From: an uncultured Traorella sp.
Lineage (GTDB): Bacteria; Bacillota_I; Bacilli_A; Erysipelotrichales; Erysipelotrichaceae
Assembly: GCF_944327115.1 (NCBI RefSeq)
Contig: NZ_CALVGS010000041.1
Location: 3,931 to 67,930 of the forward strand
DNA length: 64,000 nt
Direction: 5' to 3'
The position numbers and the translations under genes are program-made. Positions within the stretch are counted from its first letter, which is position 1. Each line of letters starts with the position of its first letter. Shown one piece after another: positions 8,726 through 43,619 of this stretch. Below the pieces are notes generated by a model. That model was not told the DNA's origin and made no database searches. It saw only the letters and a program-made list of their open reading frames with translations.

Positions 8726-8756
8726 ATGAAGGTTTAGAGTTAAATATTGTAATATC

Positions 8757-9659
8757 TTATGCGTGCCAAGGAACTGAAATAGGTGTTGTGTAATCGCCGG
8801 CAGCTCCACCAAAGATACCGAATACACATCCTACGATACCAATTACTAAAAGCAATAAGATACACTTAGTTGCAGACCAATTTTTCTTCTTGATCAGCCA
8901 GTAGCACAACAATGTGATAGCTAATGATAATGCTGCAGGTAATACACCATCTAACAGTCCCTGAACATCGATATAGTTAGCAACTGTTTCACCAGCATCA
9001 TTAATTGTAGTACCGTTAGGAATCATCATTCCTAAACTTACGTTAGCATAGTTGCAAGTCAATGCACCAACTACGAATACACCCAGCATAGAAGCTGCAC
9101 GAGTGAACTCTTTAGCATTCTTCGTTAATACAGCAATAGCGCTTGTACCTAAGCTGTAAGACCAGTACATCAATCCATAACGTAAAGCCATTTCTACACC
9201 GAAGCAGATAATGAAGTAAAGGATTGGTCCGATCCAGCTACCATCGATAGCCATATTACAAGTGATACCTGCTGTGATAGGAACTAATGCGAACCAGAAC
9301 AATGCGTCACCAATTCCTCCCAGAGGTCCCATAGCTGCAACACGTACCGAACGAATCGTGTTAATATCAGCCTTCTGCTGTTCCAATGAAAGAACGATAC
9401 CCATAACGAATGTTACTAAGAATGGGTGAGTATTGAAGAACTCAAGGTTGTGTTCCATTGAAGCAGATAAGTCTTCTTTATTTGTGTGGATTTTCTGTAA
9501 TCCCGGTAAAATAGCCCATAGCCATCCTGCAGCCTGCATTCTTTCATAGTTGAAAGAAGCCTGTAACTGACAAGATCTCCAAACCATTCTGTTTAAAGTT
9601 TTCTTATCAAGAGGAGCAGCAGGAGTTAAATCTTTATAAGTCGTAGCATTAGATGCCAT
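8757..9659 (-). CDS. agaD: PTS mannose/sorbose/GalNAc family IID component
   Basis: FNYERMQAAGW and polytopic C-terminal half. ATG 9659 has GGAGG 8 nt upstream and overlaps the IIC end. Confidence 0.9.
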   Translation of the reverse strand: MASNATTYKDLTPAAPLDKKTLNRMVWRSCQLQASFNYERMQAAGWLWAILPGLQKIHTNKEDLSASMEHNLEFFNTHPFLVTFVMGIVLSLEQQKADINTIRSVRVAAMGPLGGIGDALFWFALVPITAGITCNMAIDGSWIGPILYFIICFGVEMALRYGLMYWSYSLGTSAIAVLTKNAKEFTRAASMLGVFVVGALTCNYANVSLGMMIPNGTTINDAGETVANYIDVQGLLDGVLPAALSLAITLLCYWLIKKKNWSATKCILLLLVIGIVGCVFGIFGGAAGDYTTPISVPWHA

Positions 9660-22684: not shown

Positions 22685-24490
22685 TTATTCAACAGTCACT
22701 GATTTCGCCAGATTTTTCGGCTGATCGATATCACATCCCATCTTTGCCGCCAGATGATGGGCAAGCAATTGGTAAGGTACGATCGAAACGATTCCCTGAA
22801 GGAATTCACTCACCTTCGGCAAGAAGATCACTTCATCTGCTTCTATGCTCTCATGATAGAGATCCTCACGAATCACAAGAAGTATGCGGGCACCTCGTGC
22901 CTTGACCTCTTTCATATTCGAGATGCTCTTATCCACCAGCTTCTCATCACTGATCAGAACCATGACCGGTGTATCCTCTTCAATCAAAGAAATTGTTCCA
23001 TGCTTCAGCTCTCCTGCCGGATAAGCAACCGCCTGGATATAGGTGATTTCCTTCAGCTTTAAGGCACCCTCCATGGACAAAGCATAATCAATGCCGCGTC
23101 CGATAAAGAAAACATTTTTCTTATTCATGATCGAAGCAACGAAACCATCTAAATTTGTATCACTGATCAGCTTATCAATATACATATCTATCTTTTGCAG
23201 CTGTTTTTCTATCGTATGCAGCTGCAGCGAAGAAAGCCGGTCCATACATGAATTCAATGCCAATAAACAGCATACAGCCACTTGAGCACAATAGGCCTTG
23301 GTCGTCGCAACCGATATTTCTACACCTGCCAGTGTCGGCAAGACATACTTGGCTTCTTTTTCAAGCGAACTTCCCTTTACATTGACAATCGCACAGCTAT
23401 CCACTCCCATCTTATTCACCATGCGAATGGCTGCCAGCGTATCCGCCGTTTCTCCTGACTGTGAGATACAGATGACCAATGTTTTCTCATCCAATATCGG
23501 TGAATTATAACGGAATTCACTGGCAACCTCACATTCACAGCGGATGCGGGCATATTTTTCAATCAGATTTTTCGCAAGGACCCCTGCATGATAAGCACTG
23601 CCGCAGGCAACAAAATAAATACAGTGATACTTTTTTAGATCGATCATCGTCTTTGAAAGCTCTTGTAAACTGTTTTTCATATAATGATGGATCGTATCCA
23701 TGACCACTCTTCCTTCTTCATGGATTTCCTTCAATAAGAAAGAATCATAACCACCCTTTTCAATCGTTGAAATATCCATCTCACTCTTTTGTACCTGCAC
23801 ATCCACACGATTCAGATCTGAGTCATAACATTCAATTTCTTGATTCGTGATCCTGACGATCTGATCTTCATCAATCGTGGCATAGTTACGTGTAAAACGA
23901 ATAAACGCACTGAGATCACTTGCCAGAAAATTACCCTCTTCACCGATTCCTAAGATCAGTGGTGAATCCTTACGCATACCGTAAATCACACCTTCTTCAT
24001 CCTCAAACATGATTGCAAACGCATAGCTTCCTTTTAATATCTTGGCAGCTTCCCGAAGAACCTTTAACTTATTTTTTTCACTTCGATATAGGATTGCCAG
24101 ACATGCACAGGCAACTTCACTGTCCGTTTCACTCTTAAAAACGATCCCTCTTTGTTCATACGCTTTTTTCAAAGCTGCCGCATTCTCGATGATACCATTA
24201 TGGACAAGCGTGACACCTTCTACCCGGTGCGGATGAGCATTGATCTCATTCGGTTCACCATGCGTCGCCCATCTTGTATGAGCGATACCACAAAAACTTT
24301 CAGGCTTATCCTTGATCTTCTTCTCAAGCTCACTGATCTTGCCCTTTGCTTTTATTATCTCAATTTGACCGCACTGAAAAGAAGCGATACCACTGGAATC
24401 ATATCCGCGGTATTCCAACGCCTTCAGCCCGCTCAACAAAACACCATGCGCACAAGGTCTGCTGCCGGCATAGCCAATTATTCCACACAT
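22685..24490 (-). CDS. glmS: Glutamine-fructose-6-phosphate aminotransferase
   Basis: MCGIIGY N-terminus with an AGGAGG RBS, two SIS domains, canonical C-terminus LAKSVTVE. The ORF-track extension to 24622 is the ribozyme leader, not coding sequence. Confidence 0.95.
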   Translation of the reverse strand: MCGIIGYAGSRPCAHGVLLSGLKALEYRGYDSSGIASFQCGQIEIIKAKGKISELEKKIKDKPESFCGIAHTRWATHGEPNEINAHPHRVEGVTLVHNGIIENAAALKKAYEQRGIVFKSETDSEVACACLAILYRSEKNKLKVLREAAKILKGSYAFAIMFEDEEGVIYGMRKDSPLILGIGEEGNFLASDLSAFIRFTRNYATIDEDQIVRITNQEIECYDSDLNRVDVQVQKSEMDISTIEKGGYDSFLLKEIHEEGRVVMDTIHHYMKNSLQELSKTMIDLKKYHCIYFVACGSAYHAGVLAKNLIEKYARIRCECEVASEFRYNSPILDEKTLVICISQSGETADTLAAIRMVNKMGVDSCAIVNVKGSSLEKEAKYVLPTLAGVEISVATTKAYCAQVAVCCLLALNSCMDRLSSLQLHTIEKQLQKIDMYIDKLISDTNLDGFVASIMNKKNVFFIGRGIDYALSMEGALKLKEITYIQAVAYPAGELKHGTISLIEEDTPVMVLISDEKLVDKSISNMKEVKARGARILLVIREDLYHESIEADEVIFLPKVSEFLQGIVSIVPYQLLAHHLAAKMGCDIDQPKNLAKSVTVE

Positions 24491-24509
24491 TATTATTTTC
24501 CTCCTATTA

Positions 24510-24645
24510 AATGAAATCATTTTTGTTTCAATGTTGATTTTGATTTTTGTATGATTTCTAACGATATTTGCATACCGCAGCAGTACCCGCCGAATCTTTC
24601 GATAACCTGCTGTCCTCGTCAACTAAACTAGTCCTGGCGCTCAAC
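24510..24645 (-). ncRNA. glmS ribozyme: glmS ribozyme (GlcN6P-dependent self-cleaving riboswitch)
   Basis: Minus-strand RNA: A|GCGCCAGGACUAGUUUAGUUGACGAGGACAGCAGGUUAUCGAAAGAUUCGGCGGGUACUGCUGCGG... This matches the conserved core (AGCGCCAG-ACU, GUUGACGAGGA, GGUUAUCGAA, UUCGGCGG) directly upstream of glmS. The predicted cleavage site lies between 24641 and 24640. Confidence 0.85.
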
Positions 24646-24689
24646 TAATATAAATTACGACCCTCCTCATTTATACTAATCTAGTCGTT

Positions 24690-33454: not shown

Positions 33455-33468
33455 ACATATCAGGCAGC

Positions 33469-33500
33469 AAAGCACTGATCATGGGTCAGTGCTTTTTTTC
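33469..33500 (+). terminator. Intrinsic terminator after the NifU-like gene
   Basis: AGCACTGA / TCAGTGCT stem followed by T7. Confidence 0.6.
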
Positions 33501-33601
33501 TGTTCAAAATAACCTGTTTTTTGATAACGTTGTTTTTTTTGATCATTTGCCGGTAAAATCAATTCTAACGCGATATAAAAATCTTTTATTAATAAAAGGT
33601 A

Positions 33602-33629
33602 TTGAAATTATAAGAGAATTTGCTATAAA
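33602..33629 (+). promoter_or_regulatory. Candidate promoter of the GGDEF-led operon
   Basis: TTGAAA, 16 nt, TATAAA, about 50 nt upstream of the ATG at 33678. Confidence 0.4.
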
Positions 33630-33677
33630 ATAAATAATGATTTTTAAATATATATTTTTAATTCGAATGGGGCCAAT

Positions 33678-35582
33678 ATGAAAAAAGAAAAAAAGAGTAA
33701 TTTATTCAAATCAATGAGTATCACCATGTTATTGATTTTTTTAATGATAAGCGGATCTTTTGTTGCAGTAAGATGGATCAGCAAAATCGAAGAAGAACAA
33801 AGCTTTATGAAGCTTCATGAAGAAACAGATTATCTGGCAGAACATATTCAATTAAACATTGATAACGACCGCGGACAATTGGAAATCATTGCGGCAGTCA
33901 TTGCCAGAGCTGAAAGTTTCACAGATCAGATTTTATGGGATATTTTAGATTCTTACTCAAATATCGGATTGATTTCAAGACTGGAGCTGCTTTTGCCTGA
34001 TGATACCATCGTTACCCGTCATGGCGAGATCCGCATACAGGATTCTTTATCCTTTGATAAAGAAGCTGCATTAGGAAGCCATATCACAGACCTGGAAAAT
34101 GATTTCATAAATGACGGGCAAGCGATCTTACGTCATTATGTTCCCGTCATCCAAAACAATCAGATAACCGCCATGCTGTATGGAGTCATTGAAGTAGCTT
34201 CCCTGCCCAGCATTTTAATCAATGATCCCTATGACGGTGAAGCAGCTGCCTATCTCATGGAAGGTGAAACAGGTAATCTGATCGTTGATACATGGCATAG
34301 TGAATTAGGCAATCTTTGGGATATGGGTAAACGACAAATGGCTGATGGTTATGATTATGAGCAGTTGAAAGAAGGACTCATTAACGGTAAGTCAGATTAT
34401 GTCGTATTTGTATCCGAAACGATTGGCAAATATCTTTATTTCTATTATGAACCATTAGGAATCAATGACTGGCGGATTGCCCTCTCCGTACCCGAAGATG
34501 TCGTTTTTGAAAATTCTAACCTTGTTAAACATGTGACATCACTTTTTTTGGGATTTGAAATTATTGTTTTTATCATTTATTTCATTTGGATGATTACTTA
34601 CATAAAAAAAGAAACAAGAGAAAAACAGCTTCAGCTGGATATGATCAATGCTACGAATAATGTAGAGAAATATCTTTTCAATGCTCATGAAAACAGAAAT
34701 AATATTACGTTGGCATTGAAAGAAGTTGCTAAAATATCTCATGCCGAAGAAATATATTTATATATGAAAGAATCACAGATGCATATTTATAGCTGGCAAA
34801 AGAATGAGATCACTTATGCATCGCTTATGGAAAATGAAGTTCCGATCTCCCTGTTTTACTATTTTAAAAAAGGAAATCAGGATTTTATCTCATTTGATAG
34901 AGCTGAGATCAATCAACTATTAGGTAAAAAACACCCTTTACCGGTAAAGACCCTAGGTGTAATTTCTATCAGGGATACCGATAATCATATATGTGGTTTT
35001 TTGATGGTTGTCAATATGAGTCCACGTGAAAGGATCGCAGATTTTTTAAGAAATATCCGTTATAGCTTTAATATGTGTTACAACAATATCAGTACTTATA
35101 ACATTATTAAAGAATTTGGAGAAAAGGATATGTTATGCGGTGTTTATAATCGGAACCGCTTTGAAACGAATCTGATCAAATATCCTTCCCTTTACAAAAC
35201 TTCACTGGCCTGTATTTATATTGATGTGAATGGACTTCATGAATTAAATAATACACAAGGTCATGAGAGCGGTGATGAGATGCTTAAAGCGGTTGCTCAG
35301 ATGATTCGTGAAAATTTTGAGGCAGAACACACTTATCGTATCGGCGGTGATGAATTTATCATCTTTGTGATCGATACGCCGGAAGATGTGATCACAGAAA
35401 AAATAAAACAGCTGAAAGCAACGCTTAACTCTTTCGGCTACTCTATTTCTGTGGGTATGGAGTGGCAGACACAGGTGATTGATATGGACGATCTGGTACG
35501 CAGGGCTGAAAAGAAAATGTATGTTGAAAAAAAGAATTATTATAATGATAAAAATCACGATCGCCGGAAGAATCTCACATGA
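33678..35582 (+). CDS. Membrane sensor diguanylate cyclase (GGDEF domain)
   Basis: N-terminal TM segment, extracytoplasmic region of about 260 aa, second TM segment, cytoplasmic linker, then C-terminal GGDEF domain (DVNGLHELNNTQGHESGD, RIGGDEFIIF). No RxxD I-site is visible 5 residues upstream of GGDEF. Confidence 0.88.
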   Translation: MKKEKKSNLFKSMSITMLLIFLMISGSFVAVRWISKIEEEQSFMKLHEETDYLAEHIQLNIDNDRGQLEIIAAVIARAESFTDQILWDILDSYSNIGLISRLELLLPDDTIVTRHGEIRIQDSLSFDKEAALGSHITDLENDFINDGQAILRHYVPVIQNNQITAMLYGVIEVASLPSILINDPYDGEAAAYLMEGETGNLIVDTWHSELGNLWDMGKRQMADGYDYEQLKEGLINGKSDYVVFVSETIGKYLYFYYEPLGINDWRIALSVPEDVVFENSNLVKHVTSLFLGFEIIVFIIYFIWMITYIKKETREKQLQLDMINATNNVEKYLFNAHENRNNITLALKEVAKISHAEEIYLYMKESQMHIYSWQKNEITYASLMENEVPISLFYYFKKGNQDFISFDRAEINQLLGKKHPLPVKTLGVISIRDTDNHICGFLMVVNMSPRERIADFLRNIRYSFNMCYNNISTYNIIKEFGEKDMLCGVYNRNRFETNLIKYPSLYKTSLACIYIDVNGLHELNNTQGHESGDEMLKAVAQMIRENFEAEHTYRIGGDEFIIFVIDTPEDVITEKIKQLKATLNSFGYSISVGMEWQTQVIDMDDLVRRAEKKMYVEKKNYYNDKNHDRRKNLT

Positions 35583-35598
35583 AAGGAGTTGATGCGTC

Positions 35599-36294
35599 AT
35601 GAATGAAGTGCTTCGTCAGGAAAAGAAATTTCTGATATCGGCAGATCAGTATTATCAATACAGCCATTATTTTGAAAACATTCTGTCTTTAGACGCTCAT
35701 AGCCATGGAGATGGTTACGAGATTCGTTCTTTATATTTTGATTCCCTTGATGATCGGGATTTTCAGGAAAAAGAAGACGGTGTTGAAGTCCGTCGGAAGA
35801 TTCGCCTGAGAAATTATGGGGCAGACAGTCCTTTTGCAATGTTAGAAATGAAACAAAAACAAGGGATCTTACAGAAAAAACGTTCTTTAAAGATGAAACG
35901 CGAGGATGCTGGAAATTTAATGACAGGAGAATATTCAGTTCTATTACAGTATCCGGATGACTTTGCGGCAGAATGTTATGCTCTCATGAGCATGCATTGT
36001 TATCGCCCGGTCTGTGTGGTCAGTTATATGCGTAAGGCCTTTATCGCAAAAGAAAATAAGATAAGGATCACTTTTGATCATCATATTACCGCCAGTGAAT
36101 CGAATTTTGATATTTTCTCCAACGATTTAATCCAGAACAGCGTCTTGCATCCATATTTAGCAGTATTAGAAGTTAAATATAATGGCTTCTTATTGTCCTA
36201 TATCAAAGATACGATCAACCGGATCGACAAAAGCGAAACAGCACTCAGCAAATACTGCTTAGGAAGAACAATCGGAAAACATTATTTGTTTTAG
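35599..36294 (+). CDS. VTC-domain (polyphosphate-polymerase-like, triphosphate tunnel) protein
   Basis: Alternating charged beta-strand motifs RQEKKF, IRSLYFD, RRKIRLRNY, LEMKQK, RITFD, LEVKY; 231 aa; RBS AAAGGAG. Confidence 0.75.
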   Translation: MNEVLRQEKKFLISADQYYQYSHYFENILSLDAHSHGDGYEIRSLYFDSLDDRDFQEKEDGVEVRRKIRLRNYGADSPFAMLEMKQKQGILQKKRSLKMKREDAGNLMTGEYSVLLQYPDDFAAECYALMSMHCYRPVCVVSYMRKAFIAKENKIRITFDHHITASESNFDIFSNDLIQNSVLHPYLAVLEVKYNGFLLSYIKDTINRIDKSETALSKYCLGRTIGKHYLF

Positions 36295-36310
36295 AAAGGG
36301 AGGAATTGTC

Positions 36311-36988
36311 ATGAAAGATGTGTTGCGTTTAATTTTGGAACAGGGAACGGCTTTAAGTGTTGAAGAAATCATTTTACATATTATCTCTTCAGGCCTCATC
36401 GGTATTGCCATTTATATTTCTTACTGGTATACCCATATCGGTACTGCATACAGCAAGAAATTCAATGTTTCTTTAATTACGTTAACCGTTCTGACAGGTA
36501 CGGTCATGACGGTCATCGGTAATAATATTGCTTTATCGCTTGGTATGGTGGGTGCCTTATCTATCGTCCGTTTTAGGACAGCAATTAAAGATTCCCGTGA
36601 TACGACTTATATCTTCTGGGCGATCATCGTAGGTATCTGTTGTGGTGTCGGTGATTATCTGGTTGCCAGCGTAGGTACGATCGTTGTCTTTATCATTCTT
36701 TTGATCTTAGGACGCGTCCGCAATGAAAACCGTATTCTTTTGATCATAAAAGCCGCCCGTAATAATGAAACAGCTATTGAAAAGCTTGTGTTTGATTATT
36801 TTCATAACAAAGCCTTATTACGTGTCAAAAATACATCTCCGGAATCAATTGAATTTATTTATGAACTGTCAAGACGCACCTATGAGATCACTTATAAAAA
36901 AGAAAAAAGCATTACTCAGCTTCTTTATGAATTGGATCACGTTGACTATGTCAATATCGTGACTCAGAATGATGAAATAAGTGGATAG
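36311..36988 (+). CDS. DUF4956 family membrane protein
   Basis: Polytopic, with GALSIVRFRTAIKDSRDTTYIFWAI..G motif and a C-terminal soluble region of about 90 aa; RBS GGGAGG. Confidence 0.75.
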   Translation: MKDVLRLILEQGTALSVEEIILHIISSGLIGIAIYISYWYTHIGTAYSKKFNVSLITLTVLTGTVMTVIGNNIALSLGMVGALSIVRFRTAIKDSRDTTYIFWAIIVGICCGVGDYLVASVGTIVVFIILLILGRVRNENRILLIIKAARNNETAIEKLVFDYFHNKALLRVKNTSPESIEFIYELSRRTYEITYKKEKSITQLLYELDHVDYVNIVTQNDEISG

Positions 36989-36990
36989 TC

Positions 36991-38445
36991 ATGAAAAGCA
37001 AAATTATTTATATCTTAACGATCGTGTGTGTGTTGATTGCTTCTGTCACCTTTTATAGCATAGATATTTCTTCTCAGCGCATTCACCAGCATTTAGATGA
37101 ACGATGGCAACCATCAGAAGATGATGATACAGCCACCCATTTACCCATCGTTTCTATCCAAACAAACGGGCAAAAGATTCCCGGTTCGCGTATCATACAA
37201 GAAGACGGTACAGCCTATACAGAACTTTCAGATTCAATGAGTGAGTCCATCATTACCGATTTTACGCTCATTGACGGACAAAATGGCAAGAATCATATCA
37301 GTGATGAAGCAAGTGTAAAATCACTTGCAGATATTCATATCCGAGGAAATTCATCAAGATATTTCGACAAGAAATCTTATTCGATCCATCTGATTGATGA
37401 AGATGGCAAAGAAAATCCTCAATCACTCGCCGGTATGTCCGCTCATGATGAGTGGGTGCTCCATGGTCCCTTCTTAGATCGTTCTTACATCCGTAATTAT
37501 TTATGTATGAACATTGCCGGTGAAATCATGGAATATGCACCCAATGTCCGCTTTTGTGAACTTTGGATCGATGGTGAATATCAGGGCTTATATCTATTGA
37601 TGGAAACGATCAGTCGTGGTGAAGGCCGTATCGAAATAAACAAAACAAATGATAACAGTTATGTGACAAGCTTTATCGTACGCTGGGATCGTATCGGCAA
37701 AGGAGATCATGAATTAAATAACTTTACCTATTATACCTATGAAAGTGATCAGTCAGCCTTAGACATCCGGTATCCGGGAAACAATACATTGACTGCGGAA
37801 AAAGAAGAATATATCAGCCAACAGATCAGTCAAGTAGAAAAAATGTTGTATTCAATGAGCCTATGGGAAGAAAATCTCAGCAATTATCTTGATTTAGAGT
37901 CTTTTGCGGAATATTTTATTATCAATGAATTTTTTAGAAATATTGATGCCGGTCAATTTTCTACTTTTCTTTACAGCGATGTAAGAGGAAAGATCAAAAC
38001 AGCTGTATGGGATTTTAATAACTGTTGTGACAATAATGCTGACGGAATCAATAATGAAATTGGTTTTTCCATGCAGAATGGTATCTGGTTCAGCCAGCTT
38101 CTGAAAAATCGCAGTTTTGTTGCTTTGGTAGTGGAAAAGTATCATCAGCTGCGTGAGGGCCCTCTGTCGACCGATTATATATTAAATTATATTGATGAAA
38201 CGGATGCATGGCTGAAAGAAGCGATCATTCGCAATGATGAAGTATGGGGATATGTTTATGATTTAGAGAATTATGATATTTATAATTATTTAAGTCCGGT
38301 TGAAAGAAATATGGAAAGTCATGAAGAAGCAATTGAACAGCTAAAACATTTTATTGAAGAGCGTGGACAATGGCTGGATGAGCATATTGAATCTCTCTAT
38401 CAGTATTGTTCTGAATCAAAAAATGCAAATGAAATGTTAAGGTAG
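36991..38445 (+). CDS. cotH: CotH family atypical kinase, N-terminally membrane-anchored
   Basis: N-terminal TM segment (IIYILTIVCVLIASVTFY). The core IRNYLCMNIAGEIMEYAPNVRFCELWIDGEYQGLYLLMETI resembles CotH. Confidence 0.75.
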   Translation: MKSKIIYILTIVCVLIASVTFYSIDISSQRIHQHLDERWQPSEDDDTATHLPIVSIQTNGQKIPGSRIIQEDGTAYTELSDSMSESIITDFTLIDGQNGKNHISDEASVKSLADIHIRGNSSRYFDKKSYSIHLIDEDGKENPQSLAGMSAHDEWVLHGPFLDRSYIRNYLCMNIAGEIMEYAPNVRFCELWIDGEYQGLYLLMETISRGEGRIEINKTNDNSYVTSFIVRWDRIGKGDHELNNFTYYTYESDQSALDIRYPGNNTLTAEKEEYISQQISQVEKMLYSMSLWEENLSNYLDLESFAEYFIINEFFRNIDAGQFSTFLYSDVRGKIKTAVWDFNNCCDNNADGINNEIGFSMQNGIWFSQLLKNRSFVALVVEKYHQLREGPLSTDYILNYIDETDAWLKEAIIRNDEVWGYVYDLENYDIYNYLSPVERNMESHEEAIEQLKHFIEERGQWLDEHIESLYQYCSESKNANEMLR

Positions 38446-38454
38446 GTAATTGAG

Positions 38455-40557
38455 ATGAAAAAATTTTTATTAGGTGTATTTTCTATAGTTATCTGTATAT
38501 TCATATATATTTATGCGGTTTATTTCAAAGGCTTCTATATTGACCTTGATCCCCAGGCTCCTATTACTTCCTCTTTTCAAATTGAAGGGAAAGATATCCT
38601 TATCGTTCATGATGACGGCAAAACCGAAAAATTGATCATTAAGGGTGTCGATCTGCCAAGCACTGCCGTCAGCCATTATGCCGCTGATTATGCGATTGAT
38701 TATGATACCTATATGCGCTGGTTTGAGCTTATCAGTGATATGGGAGCTAATACGATTCGTATCTATACGATTTATAATGATGTATTTTATGACGCTTTTT
38801 ATGATTACAATATCCAACATGAAAAACCTCTGTATCTGCTTCAAGGGCTTCAGGTGAGCGAATGGGCCAATGATTCAAAAAGTGATGCCTATGGCAATGA
38901 ATTCTACAACAGCCTTAAAGAGGATGCGATCCAAGTCGTCGATGCCATTCACGGAAAACTCATAATGGGTGCCCATCAGCAAAAAGGCAGTGGTTTTTAT
39001 GACAAAGATGTGTCCCCCTGGGTCATGGGTTATATCATTGGCAATGAATGGAATGCGAAAACGATCGCATATACAAATGAACAGCATTATCCTGCTTCTT
39101 ATAAAGGAGAGTATATTTCCACAAATGATGAGGCAAATGCTTTTGAAGCAATGTTAGCAGATGTGATGGATGGCTTGATTAGTTATGAAAGCCATAAATA
39201 TAAGACACAGCGTCTTATCACATTTAATTCGACATATGATACCGATCCTTTTGAATATGATTCATTTTATGCAAGCCAGATGTTGAAGTTTGCCACGCTT
39301 GATATCAATCATTTTGTTAAAGAAAAGAATTATCAGAGCGGTCTGTTCGCATCCTATCATCTGTATGATTATTATGATCGATTTTATCAATATTTTTCTG
39401 ACGGACAAAAAGAAGCATTAGGAGAGATTCTTGAACATTTAGATACGACCAACCTATATACCACTTATACTTCCCTTTTAAATGAGTATCATAATGTCCC
39501 TGTCGTGATTTCCGGTTATAGCTATTCCAGCTCCCGTGGCAGTGATTCTTCTTATGGAGGCCTCAATGAAACCCAACAGGGAGAAGCTCTTGTTTCTGCT
39601 TATCAGGATCTTTTAAAATATACGAGCGGAGCTTTTATCGACTCATGGCAGGATACATGGGAGAAGCGAATGTGGAACACCAGTTTTGCAATCGATCTTT
39701 CCCAAAATAAAAACTGGCATGACATTCAAAGTGAAAGCAGTGGTTATGGTCTTTTATCATATGTTTCTAACCACAATACGATCAATGGCAGCATGGAAGA
39801 CTGGCCAAGTAGTTATTTGATCCAGGAGTCAGAGAATGTTTCTCTTTATGCCTTTTATGATGAAAAAGGAATTTATTTATATGTCGATGGCATATCTCAT
39901 CTGCCTGATGATATTTCTATTCCTATTGATGTAACTATGAATAGCGGAACCACGATCGATGCCGACAGCGAAGAACGATTTGAACGTCCTGCTGACTTTC
40001 TCATTCAGATTTCTGGCTCAGCAGCCAAAATACTGGTACACAGCCGTTATGATGCCTTACGTGAAAACTATCTCTATCAGATAGAACGAATCGACCCTTT
40101 TGCTGAGTATCCAAGTGTTGATGATCCGCATTTTAATGACATCTACATGATCTGTGAAAACCGAACGGTCATTGAACGAAACCATACTGAAGAAGAGCTC
40201 TATGAAGCACGGAAAAACCAGGCGTATCTGACAGGTCAGTTGATCGAGGCGTCTGAAGATGCCGGTACGCTTGCCGACTATGCCTTTCAAGATGATGGAC
40301 TTGAGCTGAGAATTCCTTGGCAGATGCTTAACTTTTCTGATCCGATCCATGCCATGATCCATGACGATTACTATCTTTATTACGGGGTCGAACAGCTTCA
40401 GATCTCAGAAATATATCTGGGCATCCTGAAAAATGAACAAGGAGTGATCGAAATGGCATCTTTGCCGCTAGAAGTAAATAAATCCTATGAATATGAGGAA
40501 TATCTAAAAGAATCCTATGAGATCGTTAAAGCGTATTGGAGTGATCTTTCATGGTAA
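38455..40557 (+). CDS. Membrane-anchored 700-aa protein with a glycoside-hydrolase-like (TIM barrel) N-terminal region
   Basis: N-terminal TM segment; IKGVDLPS, GANTIRIYT and YIIGNEWN motifs resemble clan GH-A strands. The C-terminal ~250 aa are unassigned. Confidence 0.5.
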   Translation: MKKFLLGVFSIVICIFIYIYAVYFKGFYIDLDPQAPITSSFQIEGKDILIVHDDGKTEKLIIKGVDLPSTAVSHYAADYAIDYDTYMRWFELISDMGANTIRIYTIYNDVFYDAFYDYNIQHEKPLYLLQGLQVSEWANDSKSDAYGNEFYNSLKEDAIQVVDAIHGKLIMGAHQQKGSGFYDKDVSPWVMGYIIGNEWNAKTIAYTNEQHYPASYKGEYISTNDEANAFEAMLADVMDGLISYESHKYKTQRLITFNSTYDTDPFEYDSFYASQMLKFATLDINHFVKEKNYQSGLFASYHLYDYYDRFYQYFSDGQKEALGEILEHLDTTNLYTTYTSLLNEYHNVPVVISGYSYSSSRGSDSSYGGLNETQQGEALVSAYQDLLKYTSGAFIDSWQDTWEKRMWNTSFAIDLSQNKNWHDIQSESSGYGLLSYVSNHNTINGSMEDWPSSYLIQESENVSLYAFYDEKGIYLYVDGISHLPDDISIPIDVTMNSGTTIDADSEERFERPADFLIQISGSAAKILVHSRYDALRENYLYQIERIDPFAEYPSVDDPHFNDIYMICENRTVIERNHTEEELYEARKNQAYLTGQLIEASEDAGTLADYAFQDDGLELRIPWQMLNFSDPIHAMIHDDYYLYYGVEQLQISEIYLGILKNEQGVIEMASLPLEVNKSYEYEEYLKESYEIVKAYWSDLSW

Positions 40558-41627
40558 TCAATCTTCTATTATATGTTTATCTGTTTTCATGTTTTGCACT
40601 TTTCATCTTTAATCTCTTATATATGATCTTATCATCTTTTTTAAATAAAAGATGTCATCAAAAATGCTCACAATATGAAACACAGATCATGAATGAATCC
40701 ATATATCTTCAGACACATTCCAAACTTTCTATCTCCCATGAGAGATATTTATTAAAAAGATTAAGAAATATCAATGATTTGATCGCTTTTAACAAGGCAC
40801 TTGATCATTTTGAAAAGAAGTCTGTTGAGCCCTATCTAACACAATTGCTTCCTATTTGGCAGCAGTTAGCTGTTTCTTATCTGAAAAAAGATAATATGAA
40901 AAAAGCTTTCTTTGCCTATGTAATATCAAAACATGGTTTATATTATGGTAAAGAATATCGTCCTCTGATGCAGCTGCTTCTGCAATTTTTAGACCATTCT
41001 ACCATTTATTGCCGGGAGAATGTATTCAAAGCCTTATGTACCTTGGGGAATATTCAAGCGGTTGAAAATATGATGAATATCATAAATGATAAAGAATGGT
41101 TCCATCACCAAAAGCTTATCGCAGATAATCTGAGTGTTTTTCAAGGTGATCAAGAATTACTTATGACAAGGCTCTGGCAGCATGTCAATGAATGGAATGA
41201 TCATTTGATGGTTGCCGTTGTCCAGTTTATCTCACAGAAGAATGGTAATTTCCAACAGATATTTCTTCCTTATTTACGTTCGCCGCAAACTTCTTTAGAG
41301 GTCCGGTTAGCCATGATTCGTTATTATCGCCTTCATCCTTATGAGCCTGTCCGTGAAATTCTTTATTCATTCATAGACGATACCATGATACAGGATGTCA
41401 GCTTAACGATCGTCAGTGCCTTTGCCTTAGATCACTATCCGGGCAATAAAACTATTGAACTGTTAAAGAAGGCCCTTTGTCACCATAACTGGTATGTACG
41501 TCGTAATGCGGCCGCTTCCCTTGTTCATTTAAAAGTTGCGAAAAAAGATTTAAAGGATATCTACGAAGGCAAAGACCCGTATGCCAAAGAAATCTTGACT
41601 TATATGTATAAAAAACAGGAGGTTTAA
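40551..41627 (+). CDS. HEAT-repeat protein with an N-terminal TM segment
   Basis: N-terminal hydrophobic segment. Repeats such as IYCRENVFKALCTLG and HNWYVRRNAAASLVHL. Overlaps the upstream gene by 7 nt. Confidence 0.6.
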   Translation: MVINLLLYVYLFSCFALFIFNLLYMILSSFLNKRCHQKCSQYETQIMNESIYLQTHSKLSISHERYLLKRLRNINDLIAFNKALDHFEKKSVEPYLTQLLPIWQQLAVSYLKKDNMKKAFFAYVISKHGLYYGKEYRPLMQLLLQFLDHSTIYCRENVFKALCTLGNIQAVENMMNIINDKEWFHHQKLIADNLSVFQGDQELLMTRLWQHVNEWNDHLMVAVVQFISQKNGNFQQIFLPYLRSPQTSLEVRLAMIRYYRLHPYEPVREILYSFIDDTMIQDVSLTIVSAFALDHYPGNKTIELLKKALCHHNWYVRRNAAASLVHLKVAKKDLKDIYEGKDPYAKEILTYMYKKQEV

Positions 41628-41628
41628 A

Positions 41629-43026
41629 ATGAAAACGTTTGAATTATTTTTAAATGTCGTAAATATATTCTTTTTCATTTATCTGCTGTTGTATTCTACC
41701 TATTTATTTGTATCGGTTCTTATTGGAGCCAATCATCTGTATAAAAAGGAACAGATGAATGTTATCCGGAATCAGCTGACCCATGACTATTATCTTCCGA
41801 TCTCTTTACTTGTTCCTGCATATAATGAAGAAATAACGATCGTCGACAGTATTCGCTCTCTTGTCAATTTAGATTATCGTCTATATGAAATTATCATTAT
41901 TGATGACGGTTCTAAAGATAAAACCGTTCAGAAACTATTGGAAGCTTTTAACTTAACAGAGGTATCACGTCCCATTCATATGTCTTTAAGCTGTGCACCT
42001 TTGAAAAAAATCTATGAGGGATCTGTTAACCATGTTTCTATTACTTTGATCAGCAAAGAAAATGGCGGTAAAGGTGATTCTTTAAATATGGGAATCAATG
42101 CCTCCCGCTTTCCTTATTTTATCTGTATCGATGCCGACAGCATGCTTCAAAAAGATGCTTTAGAAAAAATCATCCAGCCGGTCATGGAAGATGAGAAGGT
42201 GATTGCGGTAGGCGGATTGATCAGGGCAGCCCAATGTGCTGAATTGAAAGATGGGAAGGTCATAAGATATCACATGCCGATGAATCCTATTGTTTGTATG
42301 CAGGCTGTTGAATATGATCGTTCTTTTTTAGCTTCGCGAATATTAATGGACCAATTCAATGGAAATCTCATTATTTCAGGAGCTTTTGGATTGTTTAAAA
42401 AGGATATTGTCATTGCCTGCGGCGGATATGATTCATCAACTTTAGGTGAGGATATGGAACTGGTGGTCCGTCTGCATGTTTTCTGTCGGAATAATCTGAT
42501 TGATTATGCCATCCGCTATGAACCGCAAGCGATCTGCTGGTCACAGGTACCGGAATCGATGAAAGATTTATGTAAGCAGCGGAGAAGATGGCATTTAGGT
42601 CTTTTTCAATCTATGACACGTCATTATAAGATCTTTATGAACTTTAAGTTTGGTTTAGTAAGTTTTATTTCTTATATGTATTATTTATTTTTTGAACTTT
42701 TATCGTCCATTATTGAAGTATTTGGCATTACGGTCATGATACTATCCGGGTTATTGGGATATTTAAATATTCCGTTTATGATTGAATTTTTTCTTTTATA
42801 TTCGATCTATGGTGCTGTGCTGACGATGACTGCTTTTTTCCAAAGAATTTATATCCAGCATTTGAAGCTTACATTCACAGACGTGCTAAAAGCAATCCTA
42901 TCATGTATCCTAGAAAATGTTTTTTATCGCTATATCTTATCATTTGTAAGAGTTACTGCCTTTATCGGTTATAAAAAAAGAAAACATGTATGGGGTTCTA
43001 TTCAAAGATATTCGCAATCTTCATAA
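41629..43026 (+). CDS. Processive family-2 glycosyltransferase (PgaC/IcaA/NodC/BcsA-like polysaccharide synthase)
   Basis: VPAYNEE, IIIDDGSKD, CIDADS, GAFGLFKK, GEDMEL and QRRRWHLG (Q-x-x-R-W) motifs, with TM segments at both ends. Confidence 0.88.
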   Translation: MKTFELFLNVVNIFFFIYLLLYSTYLFVSVLIGANHLYKKEQMNVIRNQLTHDYYLPISLLVPAYNEEITIVDSIRSLVNLDYRLYEIIIIDDGSKDKTVQKLLEAFNLTEVSRPIHMSLSCAPLKKIYEGSVNHVSITLISKENGGKGDSLNMGINASRFPYFICIDADSMLQKDALEKIIQPVMEDEKVIAVGGLIRAAQCAELKDGKVIRYHMPMNPIVCMQAVEYDRSFLASRILMDQFNGNLIISGAFGLFKKDIVIACGGYDSSTLGEDMELVVRLHVFCRNNLIDYAIRYEPQAICWSQVPESMKDLCKQRRRWHLGLFQSMTRHYKIFMNFKFGLVSFISYMYYLFFELLSSIIEVFGITVMILSGLLGYLNIPFMIEFFLLYSIYGAVLTMTAFFQRIYIQHLKLTFTDVLKAILSCILENVFYRYILSFVRVTAFIGYKKRKHVWGSIQRYSQSS

Positions 43027-43052
43027 AAAGTGCATCAGAATGCACTTTTTTA
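43025..43052. terminator. Bidirectional terminator between the GT2 and yunB-like genes
   Basis: AAGTGCA / TGCACTT stem flanked by an A-run and a T-run. Confidence 0.6.
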
Positions 43053-43619
43053 ATGATATGGAAATATCTGTGGTACTTCTCCTTGAATATATTCCAGGGC
43101 CAAAGGTATCTTCTCTGAGATCGAAAGCTCATTTTTCTCAAAACCAAATAAGACATTTCCCTTGCATTCCACATTCAGAATCAGCTCAATAAAGGCATTA
43201 TTGATACCTAAGGCCGTTGTTTTGATGTTGTAGCGGGCAATGATGCGGTTGGATATCAAAAAGGTAGCTGAAACATCAGGACCCAGATGCTGAAAGAAAA
43301 CAACTCCCGTAAAATATCCCAGTGGTATGGAAGCTTCATAGACATCCGGTATTGATTCATTGAGCTGTTCATTGACCCCTATGATCCAAATGTTAAGAGC
43401 GTTGGCATCAATGCTGACCTGATCCTCCCTTTTAACCACAAAGCCTTCAGGTACTTCCAAAGTCTTGATGCTGTTCATGATCTCGCTTATGACCTGTTCA
43501 TGAAAATAAGCCTTTGCCTGTATTTGAAAAACAGGCTGCAGCTGCATATAAAACATACCTGACAATAAGATCAACATACCAAGGATCATCCATAAAAGAT
43601 TCTTTTTTTTAATTTTCAT
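43050..43619 (-). CDS. yunB: YunB-like sporulation protein
   Basis: N-terminal TM segment. IPLGYFTG....LGPDV....ALGINNAFIELILNVE....IPLALEYIQGEVP matches the YunB pattern. Confidence 0.65.
   Translation of the reverse strand: MKIKKKNLLWMILGMLILLSGMFYMQLQPVFQIQAKAYFHEQVISEIMNSIKTLEVPEGFVVKREDQVSIDANALNIWIIGVNEQLNESIPDVYEASIPLGYFTGVVFFQHLGPDVSATFLISNRIIARYNIKTTALGINNAFIELILNVECKGNVLFGFEKNELSISEKIPLALEYIQGEVPQIFPYH

What the first reader, a model, noticed from the sequence alone, without database searches (positions are those of the whole stretch)
35599..38445. Possible split bacterial analogue of the eukaryotic VTC polyphosphate polymerase, paired with an extracytoplasmic CotH kinase
The 231-aa protein shows the alternating charged strand motifs of triphosphate-tunnel (CYTH/VTC) enzymes: RQEKKF, IRSLYFD, RRKIRLRNY, LEMKQK, RITFD, LEVKY. 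The next gene encodes a polytopic DUF4956 membrane protein with the motif GALSIVRFRTAIKDSRD.
In yeast, the Vtc4 tunnel domain makes polyP and is coupled to a membrane channel that translocates the chain. Here, a soluble tunnel protein followed by a membrane protein could do the same job in two pieces.
The third gene is a CotH atypical kinase with an N-terminal membrane anchor, so its catalytic domain is probably outside the cell, where ATP is scarce. Exported polyP serving as phosphoryl donor or as kinase substrate is an attractive hypothesis, but it is untested.
Basis: inference. Interest (0 to 1): 0.7.

Follow-up and report, generated by a model that had tools for sequence, protein, structure and literature searches.

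The report
Polyphosphate-enzyme, membrane-partner, outside-kinase trio in polysaccharide operon
The three genes are real and belong to a widely conserved seven-gene operon that builds a secreted sugar polymer. Their likely job, still untested, is to carry phosphate chemistry from inside the cell to an outward-facing kinase.

Summary
Window 35599-38445 encodes three proteins:
- a 231-aa VTC-domain protein;
- a 225-aa DUF4956 membrane protein;
- a 484-aa CotH kinase with an N-terminal anchor.

The VTC protein keeps every residue shown to be needed in the yeast polyphosphate (polyP) polymerase Vtc4. Its predicted structure is closest to Vtc4.

- The membrane partner is unrelated to the VTC channel. 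It is MgtC-like, with five helices and an ACT-like cytoplasmic domain. Nothing shows that it conducts polyP.
- The trio is not a stand-alone system. It is the core of one operon (33678-43026): diguanylate cyclase, VTC, DUF4956, CotH, a 700-aa anchored glycosidase-like protein, a HEAT-repeat protein and a processive GT2 polysaccharide synthase.
- 51 of 56 related genome loci with enough flank carry the six genes from VTC to GT2 in the same order; 4 more lack only a detectable HEAT gene.

The gene set is already in the literature, as Clostridium perfringens NELoc-2 and as accessory genes of Gram-positive Pel loci. Its function is unknown there.

My best reading is a three-part system that phosphorylates something outside the membrane as part of polysaccharide production. 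The polyP-export step remains inference.

The parts
33469..33495 (+). Terminator-like hairpin (12-bp stem plus T run) after the upstream nifU-like gene. It marks the upstream boundary of the operon.
33602..33631 (+). Promoter-like site (TTGAAA, 18-nt spacer, TAAAAT; 10 of 12 matches), 47 bp upstream of the first gene.
   Evidence: This is a consensus match only. The number of such sites in the region does not exceed that in shuffled sequence.
33678..35582 (+). Membrane sensor diguanylate cyclase, 634 aa. It has hydrophobic helices at 13-31 and 289-307 flanking an acidic outside domain, and a GGDEF domain at 484-621 with an intact RIGGDEF motif.
   Evidence: The gene is lineage-specific: most related loci carry a different gene at this position.
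35599..36294 (+). Soluble VTC-domain (triphosphate tunnel) protein, 231 aa; candidate polyphosphate polymerase. Key residues: R6, E8, K10, R69, R71, E83, K85, K94, Y143, R145, R156, D160, E191, K193, S217, K218.
36311..36988 (+). DUF4956 / MgtC-like membrane protein, 225 aa. It has five predicted helices (17-41, 46-69, 72-91, 95-112, 116-133), a near-invariant core and a basic motif R87-F-R89-T-A-I-K93-D-S-R96-D. The C-terminal domain (141-218) is ACT-like and predicted to be cytoplasmic.
36991..38445 (+). CotH-family kinase, 484 aa, with an N-terminal signal-anchor (5-23) and an outward-facing acidic catalytic domain. D319 is the catalytic Asp and D341 the metal-binding Asp.
38455..40557 (+). 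700-aa protein with no Pfam family, an N-terminal anchor (4-22) and a very acidic outside domain. The profile shows weak similarity to glycoside-hydrolase TIM barrels.
40551..41627 (+). HEAT-repeat protein, 358 aa, with an N-terminal hydrophobic segment. The repeat domain is probably cytoplasmic.
41629..43026 (+). Membrane-embedded processive family-2 glycosyltransferase (PgaC/IcaA- and chitin-synthase-like), 465 aa. Motifs: D93, D168-A-D170, E274-D275, Q317-R-R-R320-W321.

Best explanation
Window 33678-43026 is one operon for a secreted polysaccharide made by a membrane GT2 synthase. A diguanylate cyclase gene is its first gene, which suggests c-di-GMP control. The three genes of the finding form an accessory phosphate module inside this operon.

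**Shown**
- The VTC protein is a soluble cytoplasmic tunnel enzyme with the complete Vtc4 catalytic set.
- DUF4956 is a five-helix MgtC-like membrane protein. Invariant basic residues sit on its predicted cytoplasmic face, and it ends in an ACT-like domain.
- CotH is a membrane-anchored, outward-facing kinase-fold protein with both catalytic Asp residues.
- The three genes travel together, next to polysaccharide genes, in at least four different gene arrangements.

**Inferred**
- The VTC protein makes a polyphosphate chain from ATP at the membrane.
- DUF4956 docks the enzyme and passes, or gates the passage of, the phosphate donor to the outside.
- CotH then phosphorylates the nascent polysaccharide or a matrix or surface protein, in a compartment that has no ATP.

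The proposed layout is a cytoplasmic activating enzyme, a membrane carrier and an outside transferase. Known extracytoplasmic polymer modifications use the same layout, for example O-acetylation by AlgI/AlgJ or PatA/PatB and D-alanylation by DltABCD.

**My estimates for each step**
- An exopolysaccharide operon with a functionally linked trio: about 0.85.
- The VTC protein makes polyP: about 0.55.
- PolyP or another phosphate donor crosses through DUF4956 and feeds CotH: about 0.25-0.3.
For: **Operon structure**
- The gaps between the seven genes are 16, 16, 2, 9, -7 and 1 bp.
- A terminator-like hairpin and a promoter-like site lie upstream of the first gene.

**VTC protein**
- Pfam VTC, E 9e-44.
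- A family profile finds yeast Vtc4, E 5.7e-12.
- The AlphaFold2 model has pLDDT 96.2. Its best structural matches are all Vtc4 (TM-score 0.72-0.78), ahead of hydrolytic tunnel enzymes (about 0.5).
- K10, R69, R71, K85, Y143, R145, E191, S217 and K218 align with Vtc4 K200, R264, R266, K281, Y359, R361, E426, S457 and K458.
- Six of these are invariant in 115 diverse homologues. The other three (K10, S217, K218) are conserved in at least 90%.
- These are the residues whose mutation lowers polyP in yeast.

**Synteny**
- VTC is followed by DUF4956 in 72 of 74 loci. CotH comes next in 67 of 68.
- The full six-gene order is kept in 51 of 56 loci; 4 more lack only a HEAT hit.
- The one apparent exception (two Agathobaculum loci) turned out to be a second VTC copy next to a complete cassette.
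- Other arrangements exist: GT2-333aa-VTC-DUF4956-CotH; giant CotH-x-VTC-DUF4956; CotH-VTC-DUF4956 inside a plasmid heteropolysaccharide cluster; and the trio downstream of pelDEADAFG.

**Topology**
- CotH, the 700-aa protein and the HEAT protein have a conserved N-terminal hydrophobic anchor or signal segment. The VTC protein has none.

**CotH and GT2**
- CotH D319 and D341 match B. subtilis D228 and D251. They are conserved in at least 97% of 68 sequences.
- The GT2 protein carries the D, DxD, ED and QxxRW motifs.

**c-di-GMP link**
- GGDEF, EAL or HD-GYP genes flank the cassette in at least 14 other loci.

**Genetics in another species**
- In S. intermedius, deleting the CotH or the DUF4956 homologue changes Pel level and aggregation.
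Against: - No biochemical data exist for any bacterial VTC-domain protein in the literature I could search.
- DUF4956 has no similarity to the Vtc1/Vtc4 membrane channel.
- Its nearest relatives, MgtC proteins, are described as regulators rather than transporters.
- The AlphaFold2 model of its membrane part has only moderate confidence (pLDDT 67.8).
- Deleting the VTC homologue in S. intermedius gave no aggregation or Pel phenotype, whereas deleting CotH or DUF4956 did. A strict linear pathway does not predict this.
- E8 is invariant in the bacterial family where Vtc4 has T198. This restores half of the ExExK metal-binding motif typical of hydrolytic tunnel enzymes.
- No CotH kinase is known to use polyP as donor.
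- The polysaccharide and the kinase substrate are both unknown.
Confidence: 0.45

Rival explanations
1. PolyP is made but stays inside the cell. The VTC enzyme produces polyP at the membrane. DUF4956 acts as an MgtC-like anchor or regulator whose ACT domain senses a metabolite, not as a channel. CotH works independently on surface or matrix proteins, using extracellular ATP or phosphorylating its targets before or during secretion. The S. intermedius authors leaned towards this reading.
For: - DUF4956 resembles MgtC in Pfam (E 9e-6) and in the fold of its C-terminal domain.
- MgtC is described as a regulator of the ATP synthase and of phosphate signalling.
- No pore is evident in the model.
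- The S. intermedius preprint suggested that polyP may remain in the cytoplasm.
- Deleting DUF4956 and deleting CotH moved Pel levels in opposite directions.
Against: - This reading does not explain why an outward-facing kinase is co-inherited with the VTC-DUF4956 pair across several unrelated gene arrangements.
- It does not explain where an outside kinase would get ATP.
- The membrane core of DUF4956 is nearly invariant, with polar and basic residues, across Clostridia, Erysipelotrichia and streptococci. That is more conservation than a simple anchor would need.
Confidence: 0.25
2. The 231-aa protein is a tunnel hydrolase or another triphosphate-tunnel enzyme, not a polymerase. It might be a triphosphatase, an ATP- or NTP-phosphohydrolase or a cyclase-like enzyme. 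It would act as a regulatory or housekeeping partner of the membrane protein.
For: - Most characterised bacterial tunnel (CYTH) enzymes are hydrolases, and they appear among the structural matches (YgiF and others).
- E8 is invariant where Vtc4 has Thr, which partly restores the ExExK motif.
- Deleting the VTC homologue gave no phenotype in S. intermedius.
Against: - Structure and sequence are clearly closest to Vtc4 rather than to the hydrolases: TM-score 0.72-0.78 against about 0.5, and only VTC proteins give convincing hits to the family profile in the PDB.
- All nine residues needed for polyP synthesis are kept, including the Lys458 equivalent that is lost in the inactive paralogues Vtc2 and Vtc3.
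Confidence: 0.15
3. This is a sporulation function. CotH would act here, as in Bacillus, as a spore-coat protein kinase, and the neighbouring genes would serve spore envelope assembly.
For: - CotH was first characterised as a spore-coat kinase.
- The organism encodes sporulation genes, with yunB immediately downstream on the other strand.
Against: - The same cassette occurs in non-sporulating streptococci, including S. agalactiae, and in Planococcus.
- This CotH has an N-terminal membrane anchor and is only distantly related to B. cereus CotH (E 7e-4).
- The cassette is built around a GT2 synthase and c-di-GMP genes.
Confidence: 0.03
4. CotH is a non-enzymatic surface protein here, an adhesin or invasin like the fungal CotH proteins. 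Its linkage to the VTC and DUF4956 genes would then be only regulatory.
For: - Mucorales CotH proteins are studied as host-cell invasins (titles).
- In C. perfringens the cassette lies in a locus associated with disease.
Against: Both catalytic Asp residues and some 49 other positions are at least 97% conserved in 68 homologues, even though overall identity is only about 42%. This pattern points to a working active site.
Confidence: 0.07

Closest known systems
Clostridium perfringens NELoc-2 (necrotic-enteritis-associated locus 2; Lepp et al. 2010, PMC2879425)
   Same: Gene content, order and sizes match: VTC domain (232/230 aa), a 226/222-aa membrane protein, CotH (497 aa), a 685-aa hypothetical protein, a HEAT-repeat protein (377 aa) and a chitin-synthase-like glycosyltransferase. 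The membrane protein was annotated there as 'tubulin/FtsZ'. I infer it is DUF4956 from its size, position and predicted localisation. Function is unknown in both cases.
   Different: - NELoc-2 has a duplicated VTC-membrane pair split by a resolvase, with sigma and anti-sigma genes in front.
- The window has a single pair and a diguanylate cyclase in front.
- I compared the published table only; the sequences themselves were not available to align.
Accessory genes of Gram-positive Pel loci (Whitfield et al. 2020, PMC7112168; S. intermedius SIR_1591-1594, mBio 2025, PMC12345266)
   Same: The same three families occur next to an exopolysaccharide system: a secreted CotH, a VTC-like 'polyphosphate polymerase', and a DUF4956/MgtC-ACT membrane protein. 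A glycoside hydrolase follows them.
   Different: - The gene order there is CotH-VTC-DUF4956, downstream of pelDEADAFG. Here it is VTC-DUF4956-CotH, upstream of a GT2 synthase.
- There are no pel genes here.
- The hydrolase there is DUF4832, whereas the 700-aa protein here does not match DUF4832.
- The 2025 paper states that the three-gene synteny was not found outside Pel loci. This window and more than 50 genome loci show otherwise.
Yeast VTC complex (Vtc4/Vtc3/Vtc1), the eukaryotic polyphosphate polymerase-translocase
   Same: The catalytic tunnel domain has the same fold and the same triphosphate- and Mn-binding residues. The enzyme is also genetically coupled to a membrane protein.
   Different: - There is no SPX domain.
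- There is no three-helix Vtc1-type membrane domain.
- The catalytic domain is a separate soluble protein.
- The membrane partner belongs to a different family (MgtC-like).
- T198 of Vtc4 is Glu here.
MgtC/SapB/YhiD family membrane proteins
   Same: Five predicted helices followed by a cytoplasmic ACT-like domain. The model's best structural matches are the solved MgtC C-terminal domains. There is a weak Pfam MgtC hit.
   Different: - The Pfam MgtC score is below the family cut-off (26.4 against 31.4 bits).
- DUF4956 is a separate Pfam family.
- MgtC is not known to partner with a tunnel enzyme.
Synthase-dependent exopolysaccharide systems with a GT2 synthase (PgaCD/IcaAD PNAG, cellulose BcsA, chitin/NodC-type)
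   Same: A membrane GT2 with D, DxD, ED and QxxRW motifs. c-di-GMP enzymes are encoded alongside.
   Different: - The GT2 scores well below the PgaC/IcaA equivalog cut-off (160.6 against 422.3 bits).
- No deacetylase, PilZ domain or BcsB-like partner was found.
- The partners are instead a HEAT-repeat protein and a 700-aa glycosidase-like protein.

Membership tests
Vtc4-type polyphosphate polymerase catalytic domain (Pfam VTC, PF09359) | Match to the VTC domain model above the curated cut-off | tested here: met
   150.2 bits against a cut-off of 23; E 9.2e-44; residues 6-223 cover model positions 2-231 of 235
Vtc4-type polyphosphate polymerase catalytic domain (Pfam VTC, PF09359) | Closed beta-barrel tunnel fold that is closest to Vtc4 | tested here: met
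   The AlphaFold2 model has pLDDT 96.2. Foldseek ranks 1-12 are chains of Vtc4 structures or of VTC-complex entries (TM-score 0.66-0.78, E down to 3.5e-14). Other tunnel enzymes score about 0.5.
Vtc4-type polyphosphate polymerase catalytic domain (Pfam VTC, PF09359) | Residues K200, R264, R266, K281, Y359, R361, E426, S457 and K458, which bind triphosphate and Mn and are needed for polyP synthesis | tested here: met
   The equivalents are K10, R69, R71, K85, Y143, R145, E191, S217 and K218. All are invariant or at least 90% conserved in 115 homologues. The residue list comes from bioRxiv 10.1101/2023.01.27.525886.
Vtc4-type polyphosphate polymerase catalytic domain (Pfam VTC, PF09359) | Synthesis of polyP from ATP | not testable with these tools
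   This needs an enzyme assay.
Eukaryotic VTC complex (coupled polymerase-translocase) | N-terminal SPX regulatory domain | tested here: not met
   The protein is 231 aa and consists of the VTC domain only.
Eukaryotic VTC complex (coupled polymerase-translocase) | Three-helix Vtc1-type membrane domain that forms the channel | tested here: not met
   - The VTC protein has no hydrophobic segment.
- The DUF4956 profile finds no VTC chain in the PDB, even at E 10.
- The DUF4956 model matches only MgtC and ACT domains.
Eukaryotic VTC complex (coupled polymerase-translocase) | PolyP passed through the membrane as it is made | not testable with these tools
   This needs proteoliposome or in vivo assays. 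Only genetic coupling was shown (72 of 74 loci adjacent).
CotH kinase family (PF08757) | Match to the CotH model above the cut-off | tested here: met
   220.7 bits against a cut-off of 23.8; residues 115-462 cover the full model
CotH kinase family (PF08757) | Catalytic Asp and metal-binding Asp (B. subtilis D228 and D251) | tested here: met
   D319 and D341 align with D224 and D247 of B. cereus CotH 5jd9. The spacing of 23 residues equals that between D228 and D251. Both are at least 97% conserved in 68 homologues.
CotH kinase family (PF08757) | Spore-coat location and Ser/Thr protein substrates | not tested
   The N-terminal anchor and the presence in non-sporulating bacteria argue for a different location. 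The substrate is unknown.
DUF4956 / MgtC-like membrane proteins | DUF4956 model above the cut-off | tested here: met
   52 bits against a cut-off of 30.6
DUF4956 / MgtC-like membrane proteins | MgtC model above the cut-off | tested here: not met
   26.4 bits against a cut-off of 31.4. The resemblance is real but falls below the family threshold.
DUF4956 / MgtC-like membrane proteins | Five helices plus a cytoplasmic ACT-like C-terminal domain | tested here: met
   Model helices are at 17-41, 46-69, 72-91, 95-112 and 116-133, followed by a beta-alpha-beta-beta-alpha-beta domain. The best structural matches are the MgtC C-terminal domains 7qa5 and 2lqj. The model has moderate confidence (pLDDT 67.8).
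Gram-positive Pel locus with accessory genes | Contiguity with pelDEADAFG (PelF GT4, PelG and the others) | tested here: not met
   The neighbours are a GT2 synthase, a HEAT protein and a 700-aa protein. No pel families appear within 10 kb on either side in the same-species contig L081.
Gram-positive Pel locus with accessory genes | A DUF4832 glycoside hydrolase after the trio | tested here: not met
   The 700-aa protein and three homologues give no DUF4832 hit at E up to 1.
NELoc-2-type cassette (C. perfringens) | Gene order VTC, ~225-aa membrane protein, CotH, ~690-aa protein, HEAT, GT2 | tested here: met
   The window order and sizes (231, 225, 484, 700, 358 and 465 aa) match the published Table 4 (232/230, 226/222, 497, 685 and 377 aa, then a chitin-synthase-like ORF). 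This compares annotations, not sequences.
NELoc-2-type cassette (C. perfringens) | Duplicated VTC-membrane pair with a resolvase, and sigma/anti-sigma genes | tested here: not met
   The window has a single pair, no resolvase, and a GGDEF gene in front.
Processive GT2 polysaccharide synthases | D, DxD, ED and Q(Q/R)xRW motifs plus membrane helices | tested here: met
   D93, D168/D170, E274-D275 and Q317-R-R-R-W321 are at least 97% conserved in 62 sequences. Hydrophobic segments lie at both ends of the protein.
Processive GT2 polysaccharide synthases | PNAG synthase equivalog (TIGR03937 PgaC_IcaA) | tested here: not met
   160.6 bits against a cut-off of 422.3

The most novel reading that the evidence does not exclude
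The trio is a previously unrecognised three-component system for phosphorylation outside the bacterial membrane. A Vtc4-like enzyme polymerises phosphate from ATP. A DUF4956 oligomer threads the chain outwards. The anchored CotH kinase uses polyP instead of ATP to phosphorylate the nascent exopolysaccharide or matrix proteins. It would be the first bacterial VTC-type polyP polymerase, the first polyP exporter and the first polyP-driven CotH kinase. A related variant is that the exported polyP itself is a matrix component that cross-links the polymer.
Probability: 0.25. Interest if true: 0.85.

Novelty: new member of a known kind. Interest (0 to 1): 0.55.

Why it matters
**If the mechanism holds**
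- It would explain how an outward-facing bacterial kinase gets its phosphate donor.
- It would give bacteria a second route to polyphosphate, unrelated to PPK1 and PPK2.
- It would define a portable module that chemically modifies biofilm polysaccharides.

**Where the cassette is found**
- It occurs in many gut Clostridia and Erysipelotrichia, in streptococci including S. agalactiae, and on a Planococcus plasmid.
- It is part of a Clostridium perfringens locus associated with necrotic enteritis.
- A related module affects Pel-dependent aggregation in S. intermedius.

A function would therefore bear on biofilm formation and host colonisation.

**Even without the mechanism**
- The trio is not restricted to Pel loci, contrary to a published statement.
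- Its most common partner in the loci sampled here is a GT2 synthase cassette.

Tried and rejected
- **Single-sequence PDB search with the VTC protein:** no hit. A family profile was needed to find Vtc4.
- **Longer VTC homologues that looked like fusions** (690, 490 and 553 aa): the N-terminal parts have no Pfam family and no similarity to cassette proteins, so they give no fusion evidence for coupling. Two others look like chimeric or truncated calls (YchF-VTC and VTC-EAL).
- **DUF4956 profile against the PDB:** nothing meaningful. The fold search matched only the C-terminal domain, and the membrane part found no structural relative. The channel idea could therefore be neither supported nor excluded.
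- **The 700-aa protein:**
  - No Pfam or NCBIfam family was found.
  - The profile gives only a weak match to a 'GH2 catalytic domain' structure, 9fz9 (E 2.4e-4).
  - The nucleophile Glu of that structure aligns with a non-conserved column, which is Gly in the window. I therefore do not call the protein an active hydrolase.
  - No paper was found for 9fz9.
- **The ~290-aa upstream protein of other loci:** its fold is unresolved.
- **Riboswitch or other RNA element upstream of the operon:** none found.
- **S. oricebi locus:** the contig ends just after the VTC gene, so it was uninformative.
- **Sporulation reading:** rejected because of the cassette's taxonomic distribution and the predicted topology.
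- **'Divergent Pel locus' reading:** rejected because the synthase is GT2 and no pel families are nearby.
- **Apparent exceptions to the synteny (Agathobaculum):** these proved to be second VTC copies beside a normal cassette.

Full report
**Observation.** Every quoted motif is present. Pfam assigns them with scores far above the curated cut-offs: VTC at E 9e-44, DUF4956 at E 9e-14 and CotH at E 4.5e-65.

**The tunnel protein**
- The protein has thousands of homologues: 2814 in one search and 4492 cluster representatives in another. Most are also about 231 aa.
- In an alignment of 115 diverse members, fourteen positions are invariant: R6, E8, Y40, Y46, D48, R69, R71, E83, K85, K94, R145, D160, E191 and K193. 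K10, Y143, S217 and K218 are at least 90% conserved.
- A single-sequence search of the PDB found nothing. The family profile finds yeast Vtc4 at E 5.7e-12.
- Counting through that alignment gives these pairs: K10=K200, R69/R71=R264/R266, K85=K281, K94=K294, Y143=Y359, R145=R361, R156=R373, E191=E426, K193=K428 and S217/K218=S457/K458.
- The cryo-EM study of the VTC complex reports that K200, R264, R266, K281, R361, K458, S457 and Y359 hold the triphosphate and that E426 holds Mn2+. All are needed for cellular polyP. K458 is the one residue replaced in the inactive paralogues Vtc2 and Vtc3. The bacterial protein keeps all of them.
- The AlphaFold2 model is very confident (pLDDT 96.2). Its twelve best PDB matches are chains of Vtc4 structures or VTC-complex entries (TM-score 0.66-0.78). 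Hydrolytic tunnel enzymes such as YgiF follow at about 0.5.
- The one notable difference is E8, invariant in bacteria, where Vtc4 has T198. This partly restores the ExExK motif of hydrolytic tunnel enzymes, so a hydrolase reading stays open.
- The protein has no hydrophobic segment, and neither does any of 79 homologues. It is therefore a soluble cytoplasmic protein.

**The membrane protein**
- DUF4956 is unusually conserved. It is 225 aa in nearly all homologues, with mean column identity of 74-84%. The stretch from Y47 to G134 is almost invariant, including GALSIVRFRTAIKDSRD, and the C-terminal tail EYVNIVTQxDEIxG is conserved.
- It also scores weakly against Pfam MgtC, below that family's cut-off.
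- The AlphaFold2 model has moderate confidence (pLDDT 67.8). It shows five helices followed by a beta-alpha-beta-beta-alpha-beta domain. The only structural matches are the solved C-terminal domains of MgtC, followed by ACT domains.
- With five helices and a cytoplasmic C-terminus, the invariant basic residues all fall on the cytoplasmic face. These are K49/K50, R87/R89/K93/R96 and R135/R137/R141. This placement is my inference from the model and the positive-inside rule.
- The protein is not related to the three-helix Vtc1-type channel. 'Split VTC' is therefore right for the catalytic half only. Whether DUF4956 conducts anything is unknown.

**The kinase**
- CotH has one N-terminal hydrophobic segment preceded by MKSK and followed by a strongly acidic domain. 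Such an N-terminal hydrophobic segment is present in 64 of 67 homologues.
- D319 and D341 align with the two Asp residues of B. cereus CotH. These correspond, with the same spacing of 23 residues, to B. subtilis D228 and D251, whose mutation inactivates the kinase.
- Both are at least 97% conserved, although overall identity among homologues is only about 42%.
- An active, outward-facing enzyme is the most likely reading.

- The trio sits in a tight seven-gene unit, 33678-43026, with gaps of 16, 16, 2, 9, -7 and 1 bp. A strong terminator-like hairpin and a promoter-like site lie just upstream.
- Gene 1 is a membrane sensor diguanylate cyclase with an intact GGDEF motif.
- Gene 5 is a 700-aa anchored, very acidic protein with no Pfam family. 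Its profile weakly resembles a glycoside-hydrolase TIM barrel, but the expected nucleophile column is not conserved.
- Gene 6 is a true HEAT-repeat protein with an N-terminal hydrophobic segment.
- Gene 7 is a membrane GT2 with the D, DxD, ED and QRRRW motifs of processive synthases. It is closest to PgaC/IcaA and chitin synthases but scores far below the PgaC equivalog cut-off.
- This is a synthase-type exopolysaccharide operon.

**Comparative evidence**
- A scan of one genome per species returned 80 loci from Lachnospiraceae, Oscillospiraceae, Erysipelotrichaceae, Christensenella, Filifactor, Acetobacterium, Proteiniclasticum and several streptococci.
- VTC is followed by DUF4956 in 72 of 74 loci with enough flank. 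CotH comes next in 67 of 68. The whole six-gene order from VTC to GT2 is kept in 51 of 56 loci. Four more (streptococci) lack only a detectable HEAT gene.
- The single remaining exception is a second VTC copy next to a normal cassette.
- VTC, DUF4956 and GT2 are the best-conserved members (median 63, 67 and 58% identity). The outward-facing proteins diverge faster (42 and 37%), and the HEAT-repeat protein is the least conserved (33%).
- In 41 loci an additional ~290-aa secreted or lipoprotein gene overlaps the VTC start. It is absent from the window, where the cyclase gene takes its place.
- GGDEF, EAL or HD-GYP genes flank the cassette in at least 14 other loci.
- The trio also occurs in other arrangements and contexts:
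  - GT2-333aa-VTC-DUF4956-CotH;
  - a giant CotH, a small gene, then VTC-DUF4956;
  - a beta-helix protein followed by VTC-DUF4956, beside a flippase;
  - CotH-VTC-DUF4956 inside a plasmid heteropolysaccharide cluster with GT61, GT2, GT4, acyl- and pyruvyl-transferases.
- The complete cassette lies on a Planococcus plasmid.
- Repeated association in different orders argues for a functional link rather than inherited synteny alone. It points to the polysaccharide, or the matrix, as the target.

**Source organism.** A protein 100% identical to the DUF4956 product is annotated as coming from an uncultured Traorella sp.. The nearest genome loci are Thomasclavelia MAGs. The window therefore comes from an Erysipelotrichaceae spore-former.

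**Literature**
- The gene set is not new. Lepp et al. (2010) described C. perfringens NELoc-2 with the same order and sizes. It includes a 226-aa membrane protein that they annotated as tubulin/FtsZ, which I infer is DUF4956. A 2024 survey re-annotated these genes as polyphosphate polymerase domain, CotH kinase, HEAT repeat and glycosyltransferase.
- Whitfield et al. (2020) listed cotH, a polyphosphate polymerase, DUF4956 and DUF4832 as accessory genes next to Gram-positive pel operons.
- The S. intermedius study modelled the VTC homologue and noted its catalytic residues. It described the membrane protein as MgtC plus ACT. Deleting the CotH or the membrane gene changed Pel level and aggregation, whereas deleting the VTC gene did not.
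- That paper states that the three-gene synteny was not found outside Pel loci. The present window and more than 50 genomes contradict this.
- I found no paper proposing polyP export to feed the kinase, and no biochemistry on any bacterial VTC-domain protein.

**Mechanism**
- Shown: the fold and residues of the tunnel enzyme, the predicted topology of all parts, the active-site conservation of CotH and GT2, and the gene linkage.
- Inferred: the tunnel enzyme makes polyP at the membrane. DUF4956 docks it and lets the donor reach the outside. CotH uses that donor to phosphorylate the polymer or a matrix protein.
- The logic is that an outside kinase lacks ATP. Other extracytoplasmic polymer modifications use the same three-part layout of cytoplasmic activator, membrane carrier and outside transferase. 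This last point rests on established knowledge of AlgI/J, PatA/B and DltABCD.
- Three things weaken this reading: the missing phenotype of the VTC deletion in S. intermedius, the regulator-like relatives of DUF4956, and the E8 difference.
- The main rivals are these:
  - polyP that stays inside the cell, with DUF4956 as a regulator;
  - a hydrolytic tunnel enzyme;
  - a non-enzymatic CotH;
  - a sporulation role, which is very unlikely.

**Verdict.** This is a real and well-defined feature. The cassette is a further member of a known but functionally uncharacterised kind. Interest is moderate to good because the mechanism, if true, would be new and can be tested directly.

Noticed in passing
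window 24503-24652 (- strand): A glmS ribozyme/riboswitch (Rfam RF00234, 74.9 bits, E 2e-15) lies at the 5' end of the 645-aa ORF 22685-24622. The mechanical TTG start of that ORF probably over-extends into the ribozyme.
   Followed up: no
L081:6804-9984, compared with window 33455-35582: Another contig of the same species carries the identical VTC protein. It has an IS91-family transposase and a small ORF inserted between the nifU-like gene and the cyclase gene. The cyclase gene is called there as 591 aa instead of 634 aa.
   Followed up: no
L001:4606-5436, L004:9127-10008 and 39 other loci; absent from the window: A conserved ~290-aa secreted or lipoprotein gene overlaps the VTC start by 4-8 bp in 41 loci. 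Its motifs are LFSW, D[VI]EPYLL, CIPYYYD and MNYY. The window has no trace of it and carries the diguanylate cyclase gene at that position. The fold is unresolved, with only weak TIM-barrel-like hits.
   Followed up: partly
L094 (Planococcus maritimus plasmid NZ_CP059541.1, 4470-12824): The complete seven-gene cassette, including the ~290-aa gene, sits on a 67-kb plasmid of a member of the Bacilli. This suggests horizontal transfer of the whole unit.
   Followed up: partly
L095 (Pseudobutyrivibrio xylanivorans plasmid pNP95, locus 6221-9360): CotH-VTC-DUF4956 are embedded in a heteropolysaccharide cluster with GT61, GT2, GT4, acyltransferases and pyruvyl transferases. This is a third kind of polysaccharide context for the trio.
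   Followed up: partly
L042, L043 (Agathobaculum MAGs): A second VTC gene, without DUF4956 or CotH after it, follows a GGDEF-EAL gene a few kb downstream of a normal cassette. It overlaps that gene in L043. This recalls the duplicated VTC genes of NELoc-2.
   Followed up: partly
L012, L013, L017, L029, L066 (streptococci, including S. agalactiae ATCC 13813): The streptococcal versions of the cassette have no detectable HEAT-repeat gene between the 700-aa gene and GT2. The GT2 hit in S. agalactiae is shorter than elsewhere, and the record has masked stretches.
   Followed up: no
L028 (MAG labelled Candidatus Limnocylindria, Chloroflexota): A cassette 65% identical at the VTC gene, with full Firmicutes-type synteny, sits in a MAG assigned to Chloroflexota. 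This could be mis-binning or horizontal transfer.
   Followed up: no
literature: PMC12345266 and PMC2879425: The mBio 2025 paper says the CotH/VTC/MgtC-like synteny is not found outside Pel loci. The 2010 NELoc-2 paper annotated the DUF4956-sized membrane proteins as tubulin/FtsZ GTPases and speculated about plasmid segregation. Both points look outdated in the light.
   Followed up: partly
window 43050-43619 (- strand): A yunB sporulation gene (Pfam Spore_YunB, E 2e-18) converges on the end of the operon. Its stop codon lies 24 bp from the GT2 stop, and no terminator-like site was detected between them.
   Followed up: no
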